This document shows positions 49,214 through 62,747 of a stretch of 64,000 bases of DNA, in pieces. The DNA is from the human T2T-CHM13v2.0 reference genome, Homo sapiens. The notes under the pieces are model-generated. The model was not told the origin of the DNA. It worked only from the letters and a program-made list of their open reading frames with translations, and did no database searches. The translations under genes and the position numbers were made by a program. Position 1 is the stretch's first letter; every line of letters begins with the position of its first letter. The stretch lies in the NCBI RefSeq assembly GCF_009914755.1, contig NC_060937.1, one strand, 5' to 3'.

Positions 49214-49309
49214 GTACTGCATAAGCCGACCACAGTATAAGACTTCTTGTGGCATCTCTTCATTAATTTCTTGTTGGAATTTCTTATACAGCACAATGGG
49301 AGCTGGAAA
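49214..49309 (+). CDS. BIVM: BIVM coding exon 3 ([31 protein letters not shown])
   Basis: 96 nt, cag|G TAC...AA|gtaagt, phase 2-2. Confidence 0.96.
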
Positions 49310-49488
49310 GTAAGTATGTCAATTTATCAGTACCCCCAAACTCCAAAGTAATTTGATGTTGCTTTTTCTATAACAGAAAAAAATTTAAGAATAGATTTTT
49401 TATAAATTTAACAAAACCCTGCTGTATTTTAGTGTAAGTCTTTTAGCTTAAAATATATACATGTATTATTTTCAGTGAAATAAAAATG

Positions 49489-49803
49489 GGCTGGGTACAG
49501 TGGCTCACACTTGTAATGTCAGCACTTTGGAAGGCCAAGGCGGGAGTATTGCTTGAAGCCAAGGAGTTTGAGACCAGCCTGGGCAACAAAGCAAGACCCC
49601 ACCTCTACAAAGTAAAAAAATAAAAACAACTAGCCAGGCACAATGGCATGTACTTGTATTTCTAGTCTCTTAGGAGACTGAGGCAAGAGGATCACTTGAG
49701 CCCAGGAGTTTAAGGCTGCAGTGAGCTATGATCACGCCACTGCACTCCAGCCTGGGCCACAGAGTGAGAACCTGTCTCTAAAAAAATAAATAAAATAAAA
49801 TAA
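49489..49803 (+). mobile_element. AluJ element
   Basis: Alu consensus with (TAAAA)n tail. Confidence 0.9.
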
Positions 49804-49919
49804 TGAAAAATATTACTAATATTATTTGCAAATCAGACAAGCATATTAACATTGAGATAGGCTGTATTTGCGTATGACTGGAATTGAAAAATGAAAGGCA
49901 ATGAATGTTTCTTTTGTAG

Positions 49920-50024
49920 CCTTCCACCTATTACCCAAGAAGAAGCTTTACATATTCTGGGCTTTCAACCTCCATTTGAAGATATTAGGTTTGGTCCTTT
50001 CACGGGGAATACAACACTTATGAG
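49920..50024 (+). CDS. BIVM: BIVM coding exon 4 ([10 protein letters not shown]...NTTLM)
   Basis: 105 nt, tag|C CTT...AG|gtatga. Confidence 0.96.
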
Positions 50025-50241
50025 GTATGAAGACCCTCTTAGAGGCAATATCGTGTTTCTAGTTTTGCAAAATAATAATGATGTAGATGTGTGTTGATAG
50101 TAAACCATGTATCCAGCTGCTGGGCTTCAACCTCTCATAGGTATACCAACTTTGGGCTATGCCTGAATTTCTTTAGAATTGGAATAATGCCATCTTTGTT
50201 GTAGAATTGTTGCCATGAACAAATCTTCTTGTTACTTTCAG

Positions 50242-50336
50242 GTGGTTTAGACAAATTAATGACCACTTCCATGTAAAAGGATGCTCTTATGTTCTATATA
50301 AGCCTCATGGGAAGAATAAAACAGCAGGAGAAACTG
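50242..50336 (+). CDS. BIVM: BIVM coding exon 5 (WFRQINDHF...AGET)
   Basis: 95 nt, cag|G TGG...ACT G|gtaggt. Confidence 0.95.
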
Positions 50337-58852: not shown

Positions 58853-59155
58853 TGTGTGTAGAAAAATCTGGGTTCTTATCACACAACAAGGAAAGATTAG
58901 GCTCACAGATACTTTGAAGGGTGAAGGGGAACAGAATTTATTGGGTGAAAAGGAAAAAACTCAGCAAAGCGAGAAGGGTTCCTGCTAACAGGCCCCCATC
59001 TCACAGATTGAATCCCAGGTTGCCACACAGGGACAGGAGAGGCCAAGGTCCTCCCCTCTGCAAACAGCGGGCACTTCCTGAGGCCCAACCCCATCCTCCC
59101 AGCACGCAGGCCAGCTGGAGATTCTCCAGGAAGCCGTTTTTACTTGGCTGTCTCA
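58853..59155 (-). mobile_element. MER61-like ERV1 solo LTR
   Basis: Reverse complement begins TGAGACAGCCAAG; minus-strand AATAAA near 58938. Confidence 0.6.
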
Positions 59156-59742
59156 TTAGTAGGAGAAGTTTGCATTTTTAGAACTTGATTATTACCTGGA
59201 GTTTATTTTTATTCATATACATCAGTAGTTTTTTAAGTTGGGATGTGTGTACTGCATATATATTAGAACTTCTATATTTTAACCTAATTTTAAATTCCAA
59301 CTTTTTGTATATCTTTTATAAAGACATATTAGTACAGTGGTATATGTATATACTTTATAAATGCATGTGCTAACATTGGGCATGCTTGTTCAGAATTTTA
59401 AGTGACAGCTGTGTACAACCAGAAAAGTTGAAACCATTGCTGAATACACTAGGTAAATTTCATAGACAAGTATGTGTGTTATTAGAAGGTTTTGGTAAGC
59501 AAGGACATATTTTAGTTCTTTAGTTTGCTAATGAGCTTACCTGAATTTCAGTTTAAAGAGTAAAACAGAATACATTTATTAACATTTTTTGTACCTATCA
59601 ATAGCTTCTTGTTTTTCCCCAGCAGTGTCAGTGTATTCCAAGTAATGTCTTTTCTGTCCTTAAGCCCTTAACCGGTCCTTTGTGTAAAGCATGGACACTG
59701 CTTTATGGGCTTTCAGTTTGTGTGTTTGTTTGTTTTTAATAG

Positions 59743-59875
59743 CTTCAGGGGCCCTGTCAAAGTTAACCCGTGGATTGAAAGATGAATCGCTGGCTTATAT
59801 CTATCATTGCCAAAATCATTATTTTTGTCCAATTGGCTTCGAAGCAACCCCTGTTAAAGCTAATAAAGCATTCAG
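59743..59875 (+). CDS. BIVM: BIVM coding exon 6 (SGALSKL...[13 protein letters not shown]...KAF)
   Basis: 133 nt, tag|CT TCA...AG|gtaagc. Confidence 0.96.
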
Positions 59876-59926
59876 GTAAGCATTGACATGTTTTAGAAAG
59901 TGCATTTTAAGAAATATTAAAAAATA

Positions 59927-61817
59927 GATGGGTGTGGTAGCTCACGCCTGTAATCCTAGCACTTTGGGAGGCCGAGGTGGGCGGATCACGAGGTCAGAAG
60001 ATCGAGACCATCCTGGCTAACACGGTGAAACCCCGTCTCTACTAAAAATACAAAAAAAAAAAAAAAAAAATTAGCCGGGCGTGGTGGCAGGCGCCTGTAG
60101 TCCCAGCTACTCGGGAGGCTGAGGGAGGAGAATGGCGTGAACCCGGGAGGCAGAACTTGCAAAAAAAAAAATTAAAAAAATTAAAAAATATTCAAAGTCT
60201 GTGATATTGGGAGGCTTGGCCATCTGCTTTCCTGACATCAAGTTAGACTATTCTTTAAACATTATGACTTATTCTTCTGCAGAATTGCATTTAGTTAATT
60301 GTGCTGTTGAAAATATCCATTTAGATACTGTTGTTCAGTCATTATAGGAAAAAGTCATTTGAAAAGTCACTTGTTTTTCTCTTAGAGACAGGGTCTCACT
60401 CTGTCATCCAGGCTGGAGTGCAATGGTGTAATTATAGGTCACTGCTGCCTCAAACTCCTGGCCTCAAGCAATCCTTCTGCCTCAGCCTCCTGAGTGGCTA
60501 GAACTACAGGCATGCACCACCATGCCCAGCTCATAAAATTTTTTAATTTGTGTTTTCTATAGAGACGGGGTCTTGCTATGTTGTGCAGGCTGGTCTCAAA
60601 CTCCTGGCCTCAAGTGGTCCTTATTCCTGGGCCTCCCAAAGTGCTGGGATTACAGGTGTGAGCCACCACACCCTTCCTGAAAAGTAATTTTTACATTTAT
60701 TATAAAACAGTTGCAAAGGATTTTATAGACTATGTCACAGTGCTTCATCCAACGTCCCACATGAACAATATATTACAGAATCTAGTGTCAAGAAGATTGT
60801 CACAACTGAGTAAATTAAAAAGCATCTTCTTTTCTTAAAGTGAAGAATATGGAATTTGTCTGGGTTCCCCCTTTGTCCTGATTGCAAGGAAGCTCTGAGC
60901 CAATTTTTATTTCCAATGTCAGAAACTACATGACTTTCATGGTTATATTTCTTTTTTGCCTAATCTAGAGTTTCTGTTTTATTAACTATATAACTTTACT
61001 GGTAAACTTGCATCTTTGTGGAAGAGATGATCCCTAAGAAAGAGAAGGTGACTAAGTTTTAATGGTTTTTTTCCTGCTTAGCCACTTTTCCTTATGATGG
61101 GTTGAGATAATACCAGGATGGTTGAAAGCCAAGGGAGAAGTATCTAGTTAAGAATTGGTGGGTGGGGTGCAGTGGTGTAATCCCAGCATTTTGGGAGGCT
61201 GAGGCAGGCAGATTGCTTGCACCCAGGAGTTCAAGACCAGCCTGGGCAACATAGTGAGACCCTGTCTCTTAAAAAAATACAAAAGTTAGCTGAGTGTGTT
61301 GGTATGCACCTGTAGTCCCAGCTACTTGGGAGGCTGAGACGGGAGGATCGCCTGAGCTGAGAACATGCCATTGCACTCCAGCCTGGGCAACAGAGCGAGA
61401 TCCTTTCTGTAAAAAAAGAAAGAAAGAAAGAAAGAATTGGTGAAAACACAAGCCATGAGTACTTTGAGCAAAGGGATTGGCTTGGTCATGGGGATAGGAT
61501 GGGTTTTTTTTTTTTTTTTTTTTTTTTTTTTTTTTTTTTTGAGACAAGGCCTTGCTGTGTTGCCCAGACTGGAGTGCAGTGGTGAGATCATAGCTCACTG
61601 CAGCCTCGACCTCCTGGGCTTAAGTGATCCTCCCACCTCAGCCTCCTGAGTAGCTGGAACTACAGGTACACACCACCATACTTGGCTAATTTTGAGATGG
61701 GGTTTCAGGGTTTCACCATGTTACCCAGGCTGGTCTTGAACTCCTGGGCTCCAGTGATCTGACCATGTCAGTCTCCCAAAGTGCTTGGATTATAGACGTG
61801 AGCCACCACACCCAGCC
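59927..61817. mobile_element. Alu cluster (~59927-60190 + 3'-deleted AluY, 60380-60673 -, 61165-61435 +, 61504-61817 -)
   Basis: Alu consensus sequences. Confidence 0.9.
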
Positions 61818-62660
61818 AGGATGGGTTATTTGGGGCTGGAGGCCATGTGGCTTTGGAGTCCCACTCAAAGGCCCCTCGGGTTTGGGGAAGAGAGGGATTC
61901 TGAGACAGGTTGGAATGACCTGGGAGAACCAGGAAGCTGGAAGTTGTGTTTTGTGAATAAGGAGCAAGAGGGAACTCTCTTGTTCTCTCCCAATGCTGAA
62001 ATGCTTTATTCATCTTTCTGGAGGTGGAATTTCTTGTAAGTGAGGTATACTGTATGTTTCTTTTATGATTTCATCCTGCAGCTTCACCTTATTTCTGACA
62101 TTTATCAAATATAAATCATGGTTTTAAACCAACTTTGTACCCTTTAAAAGAGAGTCCCTCACTTCTGCCTGTACCTAAGAATCATGTGAGATTTTCTTAA
62201 AAAACTATATAAATCCCCAGGCTCTACTCCAGACCTATTTGAATTAGAATGTCCAGGGATGGGTTTAGGACATCAGTGTGTTTAAAGACTTCATTGCTTT
62301 AGGGTTTCATTTTTAGGATGCGTTTTGAGATGTCTTGAATTCATAGTGAAAGGAGAAGAGTAGTGGAAAAATGCAGATAGCATTCCAGGATTTTTTTTTC
62401 CTCCTAGAATTTTAGAGGTGGTATATTAAAACATTTTATAGCCCTAGATTTTGAATAGAGGATTAAGGCTGAAATTTTAATTTGTGAGTTCTCTTTAATG
62501 GCCTGTAGAAATTTGCCCTCACCTAAGCTCTAATGTCTGTTCTTGATGAATGAATGCCAGGTTTGAATACACTCTAGTATGCCTTTTATTAATATATATT
62601 TGAAGCAATATACTCAAGGGAGTAACTATTAAACGTACTGTGAATGTATTTTATATTTAG

Positions 62661-62747
62661 CAGGGGACCTCTCTCACCACAGGAAGTTGAATATTGGATC
62701 TTAATTGGAGAATCAAGTAGAAAACATCCTGCCATTCACTGTAAAAA
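62661..62747 (+). CDS. BIVM: BIVM coding exon 7 ([28 protein letters not shown]); CDS continues beyond the window
   Basis: 87 nt, tag|C AGG...AA|gtatgt; cumulative CDS 1121 nt, phase-consistent. Confidence 0.95.

What the first reader, a model, noticed from the sequence alone, without database searches (positions are those of the whole stretch)
49214..62747. BIVM core looks like a papain-fold (C39-like) cysteine hydrolase with a Cys214-His326-Glu362 triad
Seen: the spliced exons give [19 protein letters not shown] (Gln209; Cys214 codon 49248-49250, then a hydrophobic helix-like run), [16 protein letters not shown] (His326 codon 59817-59819 heading a hydrophobic strand) and YWILIGESS (Glu362 codon 62710-62712 ending another strand). 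Known: C39 and related papain-clan enzymes use the order Q-x(n)-CG-helix ... H-[YF]-hydrophobic-G ... hydrophobic-D-[PS], and BIVM was named for Ig-like motifs with no enzymatic function that I know of. Inference: BIVM is a cysteine protease, isopeptidase or acyltransferase with a low-complexity N-terminus and a basic patch, not an Ig-like protein. If the known BIVM-ERCC5 read-through is translated, this domain would be fused to the XPG nuclease. I cannot exclude that structure databases already note the fold.
Basis: partly seen in the sequence, partly recalled or inferred. Interest (0 to 1): 0.85.

Follow-up and report, generated by a model that had tools for sequence, protein, structure and literature searches.

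The report
BIVM papain-like cysteine enzyme domain
The conserved core of the human BIVM protein really does look like a papain-type cysteine enzyme with an intact catalytic centre, but this was already published in 2023 and what the enzyme acts on is still unknown.

Summary
The annotated exons splice in frame and place Gln209, Cys214, His326 and Glu362 exactly at the stated codons.

The interpretation also holds. With an 88-sequence alignment, AlphaFold2 models residues ~186-422 at pLDDT 94-98. Foldseek and two VIA-align runs return papain-clan enzymes. The best match is primitive phytochelatin synthase Alr0975 (Z 16.0-16.3); C39/PCAT domains score only Z 11-12.

Across 88 diverse relatives:
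- Gln209 is kept in 87.
- Cys214 is kept in 86; the other 2 have Ser.
- His326 is kept in 88.
- Position 362 is Asp or Glu in 88.

In the model these residues sit at the canonical helix N-terminus, β2 start and β3 end. Side-chain distances could not be measured because coordinates are not exposed.

It is not new. Ozhelvaci & Steczkiewicz (JBC 2023) already classified BIVM as a papain-like cluster I domain with a conserved triad and oxyanion residue, and Pfam 38.1 has PF28452 "BIVM".

The domain runs on to residue ~422, encoded beyond the window. The read-through fusion keeps the whole domain but truncates XPG_N. No enzymology was found.

The parts
35444..35921 (+). Coding part of exon 3: BIVM residues 1-159 plus the first base of codon 160. 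This is the N-terminal region without confident structure, and it includes the start of the basic patch.
   Evidence: Translation. pLDDT is mostly below 60 for residues 1-180. The most basic 25-mer starts at residue 156 with 11 K/R of 25.
44605..44731 (+). Exon encoding residues 160-201: the rest of the basic patch and the first helices (188-194, 199-203) of the conserved domain.
   Evidence: The family profile core starts at about position 187.
49214..49309 (+). Exon encoding residues 202-233: Gln209 (oxyanion-hole candidate), Cys214 (nucleophile) and the core alpha-helix 214-227 with invariant Asn224.
   Evidence: codons. Q209 in 87 of 88, C214 in 86 of 88, G215 in 85 of 88, N224 in 88 of 88; helix 214-227.
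49233..49235 (+). Codon of Gln209.
   Evidence: Conserved in 87 of 88; the one miss is an N-terminally truncated sequence.
49248..49250 (+). Codon of Cys214, the proposed catalytic nucleophile and the first residue of the core helix.
49920..50024 (+). Exon encoding residues 234-268: inserted helices between the core helix and beta1', with invariant Asn264.
   Evidence: H240-246, H264-277. N264 in 88 of 88.
50242..50336 (+). Exon encoding residues 269-300: end of helix 264-277 and strand 282-288 (beta1').
59743..59875 (+). Exon encoding residues 301-344: helix 301-313, strand 317-323 (Tyr321-His322-Cys323), and strand 326-337 headed by His326.
   Evidence: Y321 in 88 of 88, H322 in 87 of 88, C323 in 84 of 88, H326 in 88 of 88.
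59817..59819 (+). Codon of His326, the proposed general base and the first residue of strand beta2.
62661..62747 (+). Exon encoding residues 345-373: strand 354-361 (beta3) followed by Glu362, and strand 370-374. This is the last BIVM exon inside the window.
   Evidence: position 362 is Asp in 45 and Glu in 43 of 88.
62710..62712 (+). Codon of Glu362, the proposed third triad residue.

Best explanation
Residues ~186-422 of BIVM form a papain-clan ('cluster I') thiol-enzyme domain. The first 188 of these residues are encoded in this window and the rest just beyond it.

Proposed mechanism:
- Cys214 sits at the N-terminus of the core helix and is the nucleophile.
- His326, the first residue of strand beta2, is the general base.
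- The acidic residue at 362 (Glu in vertebrates, Asp in about half of the family), just after strand beta3, orients the histidine.
- Gln209, five residues before the cysteine, supplies the oxyanion hole.
- Catalysis would go through a thioester acyl-enzyme. That intermediate is then resolved by water (peptidase or amidase) or by an amine or hydroxyl acceptor (transpeptidase or acyltransferase).

Shown here: the sequence, the conservation, the predicted fold and the canonical placement of the residues. Inferred: that the residues touch, that the protein is active, and the chemistry.

The ~185-residue N-terminus, with its basic patch from residue 156, is not confidently structured and is probably a targeting or regulatory region. 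The substrate is unknown. Published ciliary phylogenetic profiling and basal-body staining suggest it lies in the cilium or centriole context. The family name ('immunoglobulin-like variable motif') does not reflect the fold.
For: Sequence and codons.

Family size: 638 proteins at E<=1e-3, with the core at profile positions 187-421.

Conservation in 88 members:
- Q209 in 87, C214 in 86 (2 Ser), H326 in 88, Asp/Glu at 362 in 88.
- Only 28 of 237 core positions are >=95% conserved, and Q209, C214 and H326 are among them.

Model: pLDDT 94-98 over the core. Elements are helix 214-227 and strands 282-288, 317-323, 326-337, 354-361, 370-374 and 413-419. This matches the canonical order alpha, beta1', beta1, beta2 (His), beta3 (third residue), beta4, beta5 described in PMC10318531 sections 5-6.

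Fold searches:
- Foldseek best is Alr0975, E 2.9e-4.
- VIA-align over 48,161 chains: Alr0975 Z 15.8 (167 residues, rmsd 3.1), then staphopain C 12.7, C39-like 12.0, UfSP 11.9 and PCAT 11.7.
- Second look: Alr0975 Z 16.0-16.3. The tool's own baseline for models without a true match is Z 7-8.

Independent prior work reached the same conclusion (PMC10318531 main text and supplement 3).

Cilium link:
- PMC5850483 passages.
- A Leishmania homologue is listed in a table where several neighbouring rows are ciliary or flagellar genes.
Against: Triad distances could not be measured, because the tools do not expose model coordinates.

The core has other conserved candidates: His322 and His412 (>=90%), Cys204, Cys323 and Cys413 (>=90%), and invariant Asp381. 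A non-canonical arrangement or a second site, such as a metal site, is therefore not excluded.

Sequence-only methods give no link to any peptidase family:
- 0 of 88 members hit a peptidase Pfam model at E<=1.
- The PDB profile search returned only one spurious hit.
- hhalign against UFSP1 and an ACTMAP profile gave probabilities of 0.04 and 0.07.

No biochemical activity has been reported in the searched library. Two of 88 members have Ser for Cys214, and one further relative has lost both Cys and His, so not every family member can use this chemistry.
Confidence: 0.8

Rival explanations
1. The domain is a transferase rather than a hydrolase. It would be an acyl- or transpeptidase that passes the thioester-bound acyl group to an acceptor, like phytochelatin synthase or the BtrH acyltransferase.
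For: The nearest solved structures are Alr0975 phytochelatin synthase entries, including glutathione acyl-enzyme intermediates. They score Z 16.0-16.3, about 4 units above any peptidase. The 2023 paper links BIVM by remote homology to BtrH_N, an ACP:aminoglycoside acyltransferase domain.
Against: The PF05023 and PF14399 models hit 0 of 88 members at E<=1. Sequence identity to Alr0975 is only 13-14%. Structural similarity at this level does not fix the reaction type. Most cluster I members are hydrolases.
Confidence: 0.3
2. The domain is a deconjugating enzyme for ubiquitin or a ubiquitin-like modifier, such as UFM1 or ATG8. That was one of the reader's options (isopeptidase).
For: Language-model features place Peptidase_C78 (UFM1-specific protease) clusters next to BIVM, with scores of 0.95. 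UfSP1, UfSP2 and ZUP1 appear in both structure searches at Z 9.7-12.1. Supplement 3 of PMC10318531 lists curated interactions with the E3 ligases TRAF3, TRIM26 and TRIM41.
Against: UfSP and ATG4 use an Asp-Pro-His box on beta3. BIVM has His on beta2, and the residue two before His326 is variable: Gln 25, Tyr 23, His 15 and others, of 88. UfSP scores about 4 Z units below phytochelatin synthase. PF07910 hits 0 of 88 at E<=1.
Confidence: 0.15
3. BIVM is a catalytically dead scaffold (pseudo-enzyme) that only keeps the papain fold.
For: No activity has been reported. Occasional family members lack the nucleophile: 2 of 88 have Ser, and one relative has lost both Cys and His. Cluster I contains known inactive members.
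Against: Gln209, Cys214, His326 and the acidic residue at 362 are kept in 86-88 of 88 sequences. Those sequences share as little as 28% identity with the reference, which is hard to explain without selection on catalysis.
Confidence: 0.1
4. BIVM is an immunoglobulin-variable-like protein, as its name implies.
For: Only the historical name. The original report (Yoder et al. 2002) was seen only as a reference entry and was not read.
Against: Residues 186-422 are confidently modelled as an alpha+beta papain fold, not a beta-sandwich. No Ig Pfam family is hit in 88 members at E<=1. The rows of both VIA lists that I can classify are papain-clan proteins.
Confidence: 0.02

Closest known systems
BIVM papain-like domain as classified by Ozhelvaci & Steczkiewicz, J Biol Chem 2023 (PMC10318531), and Pfam 38.1 family PF28452 'BIVM'
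   Same: This is the same protein and the same conclusion: a previously unrecognised papain-like domain in cluster I (group 2, 'NEW'), with a conserved catalytic triad and oxyanion-hole residue, a positively charged pocket and unknown function. All 120 listed orthologues carry PF28452, and the family name comes.
   Different: The text I could read gives no residue numbers; Figure S1A was not viewable. This report adds:
- the residue assignment, with counts over 88 sequences;
- the nearest solved structure;
- the domain limits;
- the extra conserved His/Cys/Asp positions;
- the state of the read-through fusion.
Primitive phytochelatin synthase Alr0975 of Nostoc (peptidase family C83, PF05023)
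   Same: It is the best structural match: Z 15.7-16.3, 167-170 aligned residues, rmsd 2.9-3.2 A, and Foldseek E 2.9e-4. It is a thiol enzyme that forms an acyl-enzyme with its substrate, according to the PDB titles.
   Different: Identity is only 13-14%. PF05023 hits 0 of 88 members at E<=1. BIVM has about 60 more residues in inserts. There is no evidence that BIVM binds glutathione. Residue-level equivalence was not obtained.
Peptidase C39 / C39-like double-glycine peptidase domains (ComA, PCAT1, LahT; PF03412, PF13529)
   Same: It shares the clan and sub-cluster, the compact core and a similar motif order (Gln, Cys-Gly at the helix start, His heading a hydrophobic strand, acidic residue after the next strand). 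Scores are Z 11.3-12.0 with rmsd 2.6-3.4 A.
   Different: It is not the closest neighbour. No C39 model hits any of 88 members, and none carries an ABC-transporter domain. BIVM is a eukaryotic protein: no confirmed prokaryotic relative in two pattern scans.
UFM1-specific proteases UfSP1/UfSP2 (Peptidase_C78)
   Same: It is the nearest look-alike by language-model features, at 0.95, and scores Z 11.6-12.1.
   Different: UfSP has the Cys / Asp-Pro-His arrangement. BIVM has the canonical Cys / His / acid order, and position 324 is variable. hhalign against the human UFSP1 open frame gave probability 0.04.
ACTMAP (C19orf54), the actin maturation protease
   Same: It is another human cluster I protein, recognised in the same 2023 study and tied there to the C39/C70/C47/BtrH_N neighbourhood. 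Its alignment shows the same Gln-x4-Cys-Gly spacing at its invariant Q127-C132-G133. Atlas feature score is 0.89.
   Different: hhalign of the BIVM family against a 25-sequence mammalian ACTMAP alignment found nothing (probability 0.07). That profile was shallow, so the result is inconclusive. ACTMAP has a known substrate and BIVM has none.

Membership tests
Papain-like cysteine peptidase superfamily (clan CA), cluster I | Core of one alpha-helix followed by an antiparallel sheet of 4-6 strands (alpha, beta1', beta1-beta5) | tested here: met
   Model at pLDDT 94-98 with H214-227 and strands 282-288, 317-323, 326-337, 354-361, 370-374 and 413-419. Best matches are papain-clan chains with Z up to 16.3.
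Papain-like cysteine peptidase superfamily (clan CA), cluster I | [quoted passage not shown] | tested here: met
   Cys214 is the first residue of helix 214-227 and is conserved in 86 of 88, with 2 Ser.
Papain-like cysteine peptidase superfamily (clan CA), cluster I | Catalytic His on strand beta2 and a third polar residue on or after beta3, in hydrogen-bond distance | tested here: inconclusive
   Position and conservation are met: His326 heads strand 326-337 and is kept in 88 of 88, and Asp/Glu362 follows strand 354-361 and is kept in 88 of 88. Distances could not be measured because coordinates are not exposed.
Papain-like cysteine peptidase superfamily (clan CA), cluster I | Oxyanion-hole Gln a few residues before the Cys | tested here: met
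   Gln209 is kept in 87 of 88, and the one miss is a truncated sequence.
Papain-like cysteine peptidase superfamily (clan CA), cluster I | Thiol-dependent catalytic activity | not testable with these tools
   No report was found in the searched library.
Peptidase C39 / C39_2 (PF03412, PF13529) | Match to the family HMM | tested here: not met
   0 of 88 members hit at E<=1. PF13529 also finds nothing in the human genome.
Peptidase C39 / C39_2 (PF03412, PF13529) | Association with an ABC transporter or double-glycine leader processing | tested here: not met
   No ABC-transporter domain in any of 88 members, and no confirmed prokaryotic relative.
Phytochelatin synthase (C83, PF05023) | Match to the family HMM | tested here: not met
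   0 of 88 members at E<=1. The resemblance is structural only (Z 16).
UfSP / ATG4 type (C78, C54) | Asp-Pro-His box, with the acid two residues before the His | tested here: not met
   Position 324 is Gln 25, Tyr 23, His 15 and others, of 88. Position 325 is Asn in 82 of 88.
BIVM family (Pfam PF28452) | Match to the family HMM | tested here: inconclusive
   The model is absent from the local Pfam copy. Precomputed annotation lists PF28452 on all 120 listed orthologues, and the Atlas names it 'BIVM'. The window's protein differs from P0017 at only 26 of 373 positions.
Immunoglobulin V-type domain | Ig HMM match | tested here: not met
   No Ig Pfam family in 88 members at E<=1.
Immunoglobulin V-type domain | Beta-sandwich fold | tested here: inconclusive
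   Residues 186-422 are an alpha+beta papain fold. The low-confidence tails were not tested on their own.

The most novel reading that the evidence does not exclude
BIVM could be the catalytic component of a still-unassigned protein-processing activity tied to cilia or basal bodies. It would be a thiol amidase or transpeptidase acting on an acidic peptide tail or side-chain linkage, for example tubulin-tail modifications or an N- or C-terminal maturation step comparable to ACTMAP on actin. The leads are:
- a positively charged pocket (stated in PMC10318531 supplement 3);
- nearest structural kinship with an enzyme that forms a gamma-glutamylcysteine acyl-enzyme;
- a published remote link to BtrH_N;
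- a ciliary phylogenetic profile with basal-body staining;
- presence in flagellates such as Leishmania.
A second conserved His322/Cys323/His412/Cys413 cluster might add a metal or regulatory site. None of this was tested here.
Probability: 0.12. Interest if true: 0.75.

Novelty: already known. Interest (0 to 1): 0.3.

Why it matters
BIVM is a deeply conserved, single-copy human gene (9 of 9 genome matches are its own exons). Its name is misleading and it has no assigned activity. Recognising it as a probably active papain-type enzyme turns an 'unknown' into a testable orphan enzyme, with obvious point mutants (Cys214, His326, Glu362) and a plausible cellular setting at the ciliary base. That recognition is already in print, so the value of this finding is confirmation, explicit residue assignment and sharper comparators, not discovery. 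It also clarifies that the annotated BIVM-ERCC5 read-through protein would carry a complete BIVM domain but an XPG nuclease domain missing its N-terminal segment.

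Tried and rejected
1. First structure job on a 7-sequence vertebrate alignment failed (mean pLDDT 29.6) and was discarded.
2. Pfam on single exons found nothing relevant. 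Pfam on five full orthologues found nothing, and the local copy lacks PF28452. Pfam on all 88 members found no peptidase family, and the only strong hits were XPG domains in one fused model.
3. PDB sequence searches gave only spurious hits. The family profile returned one hit at E 1.4. The Cys-helix exon alone returned one hit at E 1.2.
4. hhalign of the family against the human UFSP1 open frame (probability 0.04) and against a 25-sequence mammalian ACTMAP alignment (probability 0.07) gave no residue equivalence. Both comparators were shallow, so this is inconclusive.
5. Prokaryotic relatives and gene context: two pattern scans of genome contigs confirmed 0 of 19 and 0 of 55 candidate stretches. 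A third alignment was too divergent for the tool to derive patterns. Pattern-based absence is weak evidence.
6. Naming distant members: relatives of the Ser-variant P0233 are unnamed.
7. The second-best structural neighbour, PDB 22oc 'P210 CD lyase', could not be identified in three literature searches.
8. I had supposed that the read-through fusion truncates the papain domain. That was wrong: the fusion keeps BIVM to about residue 484.
9. Tubulin deglycylase was considered as a specific guess and put aside. BIVM occurs in Leishmania, and by my recollection trypanosomatids lack tubulin glycylation.
10. Earlier findings of this scan were not open. A relatives search was not possible for this genome.

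Full report
OBSERVATION.
- Joining the seven annotated coding parts inside the window gives BIVM residues 1-373 in one open frame. All internal exon borders are AG/GT.
- The quoted motifs are present. The codons are exactly as stated: Gln209 at 49233-49235, Cys214 at 49248-49250, His326 at 59817-59819 and Glu362 at 62710-62712.
- The window holds only part of the protein. A search of the window's own assembly with an orthologue found nine matches, all BIVM's own exons, so the gene is single-copy.
- Two of those exons lie beyond the window, at window-equivalent 66836-66970 and 67761-68057. They encode residues ~374-503.

PRIOR ART.
- A full-text search for 'BIVM' returned 132 papers.
- From that paper I read passages, the abstract and outline, sections 5, 6 and 8, supplement hits and part 1 of supplement file 3.
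- It lists BIVM among seven human proteins newly recognised as papain-like, and places it in cluster I as a new group.
- The text I saw gives no residue numbers. Figure S1A could not be viewed.
- Searches for BIVM with 'papain-like', 'protease', 'centriole' and 'cilia' found no enzymological study.
- Pfam 38.1 has a family PF28452 named 'BIVM'. It is precomputed on all 120 listed orthologues but is absent from the local Pfam copy.

FAMILY AND CONSERVATION.
- A spliced protein could not be handed to the tools, so I used the His-bearing exon by reference to retrieve orthologues.
- I took the hyena protein P0017 as a stand-in. It has the same length and numbering as the human protein. In residues 186-373 it differs only at N234T and R310H.
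- A profile of seven vertebrates, searched against 1.84 billion representatives, found 638 proteins at E<=1e-3 and 430 at E<=1e-10. The shared core lies at profile positions ~187-421.
- I aligned 88 sequences covering that core. They comprise 6 vertebrate orthologues, 81 of the 88 library hits that passed a coverage filter, and P0174. I left out seven of the filter-passing hits.
- Conservation in that alignment: Gln209 in 87 of 88 (the miss is a truncated sequence); Cys214 in 86 of 88 (two have Ser); Gly215 in 85; His326 in 88; position 362 is Asp in 45 and Glu in 43.
- Only 28 of 237 core positions reach 95% conservation.
- One further relative, seen in a 14-sequence alignment, has lost both the Cys and the His.

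STRUCTURE.
- With the 88-sequence alignment the core is modelled at pLDDT 94-98, while residues 1-185 and 425-503 stay below ~60.
- Foldseek against the PDB gives Alr0975 (primitive phytochelatin synthase) as best, at E 2.9e-4. UfSP, ZUP1, falcipains, staphopain and ComA follow.

| Match | Z | Aligned residues | rmsd (A) |
|---|---|---|---|
| Alr0975, VIA-align over 48,161 representative chains | 15.8 | 167 | 3.1 |
| 'P210 CD lyase' (22oc) | 15.1 | 165 | 2.9 |
| Staphopain C | 12.7 | 153 | 3.0 |
| PeiR | 12.3 | 137 | 2.5 |
| C39-like peptidase (3erv) | 12.0 | 153 | 3.4 |
| UfSP | 11.9 | 171 | 3.9 |
| PCAT-type peptidase (6mpz) | 11.7 | 135 | 2.9 |
| Alr0975 entries, second look at Foldseek's top chains | 16.0-16.3 | 167-170 | 2.9-3.2 |

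- Every row whose class I can judge is a papain-clan protein. I judged class from the family lists or from recall. I could not classify 22oc or the two Citrobacter CDI-toxin entries from their titles.
- The tool's stated background for models without a true match is Z 7-8.

TRIAD ASSIGNMENT AND ITS LIMIT.
- In my model Cys214 opens helix 214-227, His326 opens strand 326-337 and Glu362 immediately follows strand 354-361.
- Together with the conservation, this makes Gln209/Cys214/His326/Glu362 the most parsimonious catalytic set.
- I could not measure distances, because model coordinates are not returned by any tool. Profile-profile comparisons that might have given residue equivalences found nothing.
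- The second cluster of conserved His and Cys, and the invariant Asp381, remain unexplained. A structural metal site is one possibility and was not tested.

WHAT IT IS CLOSEST TO.
- 'C39-like' is acceptable at the level of the cluster I sub-group. But C39/PCAT domains score 4-5 Z units below phytochelatin synthase. No C39, C83, C78 or BtrH_N Pfam model hits any of the 88 members at E<=1.
- BIVM lacks the Asp-Pro-His box of UfSP and ATG4.
- It is therefore its own family within the clan, as the 2023 paper and Pfam treat it.
- Two pattern scans of 185,579 prokaryotic species genomes confirmed no relative: 0 of 19 and 0 of 55 candidate stretches. This is weak negative evidence.
- The Atlas nevertheless labels one BIVM cluster 63% 'Bacteria'. 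I cannot reconcile the two.

LIKELY MECHANISM AND SETTING.
- The supported reading is a thiol enzyme working through a Cys214 thioester.
- Hydrolase versus transferase is open. The two nearest relatives by structure and by published remote homology (phytochelatin synthase, BtrH) both transfer acyl groups.
- For the cellular setting I rely on print. Nevers et al. 2017 (PMC5850483, passages only) put BIVM in a ciliary 'lost in Ecdysozoa' phylogenetic module and saw the mouse protein at the ciliary base in mIMCD3 cells, but not in two human cell lines.
- A 2025 table lists a Leishmania major homologue at E 5e-56, in a table where several neighbouring rows are ciliary or flagellar genes (PMC12567135, one passage).
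- A 2023 exome study only speculates on cilia (PMC10167099, passages).

READ-THROUGH.
- Annotated mammalian BIVM-ERCC5 fusion proteins keep BIVM to about residue 484 and then continue with ERCC5 at 'ISIWLNQ'. The whole papain core is therefore retained.
- The XPG_N Pfam match in such a fusion covers only profile positions 33-99 of 101. In a model that includes the ERCC5 start it covers 1-99.
- That the missing segment matters for nuclease activity is my inference from recalled knowledge of the FEN1/XPG family.

VERDICT. It is a sound rediscovery of a still-orphan enzyme, and its interest is modest.

Noticed in passing
Outside the window: window-equivalent 66836-66970 and 67761-68057 (locus L013); residues 374-422: The conserved core continues past the window. 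It carries invariant Asp381 and Gly398 and near-invariant Trp375, Arg393, Asn410, His412 and Cys413. Together with His322 and Cys323 (window 59805-59810) and Cys204, these form a second conserved His/Cys set of unknown role, possibly a metal site.
   Followed up: partly
window 35444-35921 and 44605-44731 (residues ~138-148 and 156-180): About 45-60 residues upstream of the domain, a short motif of the type hydrophobic-Trp-Glu-Ile-Asp is kept from vertebrates to invertebrate relatives (sequences; 'W..D' in the consensus). It is followed by the basic patch (11 K/R of 25 from residue 156). It could be a docking or autoinhibitory element. This was not tested.
   Followed up: no
Proteins P0168, P0233 and P0261: Two of 88 family members have Ser in place of Cys214, although a 76%-identical relative of one of them keeps Cys. 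One further relative has lost both Cys214 and His326. The family therefore includes occasional altered or dead members.
   Followed up: partly
PDB entry 22oc ('P210 CD lyase', released 2026-03-18): This is the second-best structural neighbour of the BIVM core (Z 15.1, 165 residues, rmsd 2.9 A, 16% identity). I could not find what this protein is in three literature searches. If it really is a lyase, it might bear on BIVM's chemistry.
   Followed up: partly
window 48170-48246 (+), intron of BIVM: Rfam Y_RNA match just above the gathering score (39.9 against 38 bits, E 7.2e-5). It coincides with the annotated RNY5P8 pseudogene and lies next to a masked repeat.
   Followed up: yes
window 26900-29000: A G+C-rich stretch (0.61-0.75) spans the head-to-head starts of POGLUT2 (minus strand, ends 27152) and BIVM (plus strand, starts 27295), which are 143 bases apart in the hub's gene table. 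It looks like a shared bidirectional CpG-island promoter.
   Followed up: partly
ESM Atlas cluster against genome-contig scans: One Atlas cluster of BIVM-domain proteins is labelled 63% Bacteria, most commonly Candidatus Cloacimonadota (phylum known for 19 members). The 2023 paper's table also counts a few apparently non-eukaryotic members (column headings not seen). My two pattern scans of prokaryotic species genomes nevertheless confirmed none. These could be contaminated metagenome bins or rare true transfers. This is unresolved.
   Followed up: partly
Locus L001 (own genome, chromosome 7), 1456-2157 minus strand: The UFSP1 open frame is 233 codons from stop to stop, but no ATG-started ORF of at least 150 aa exists there. 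From recall, this fits published reports that human UFSP1 starts at a non-AUG codon.
   Followed up: no
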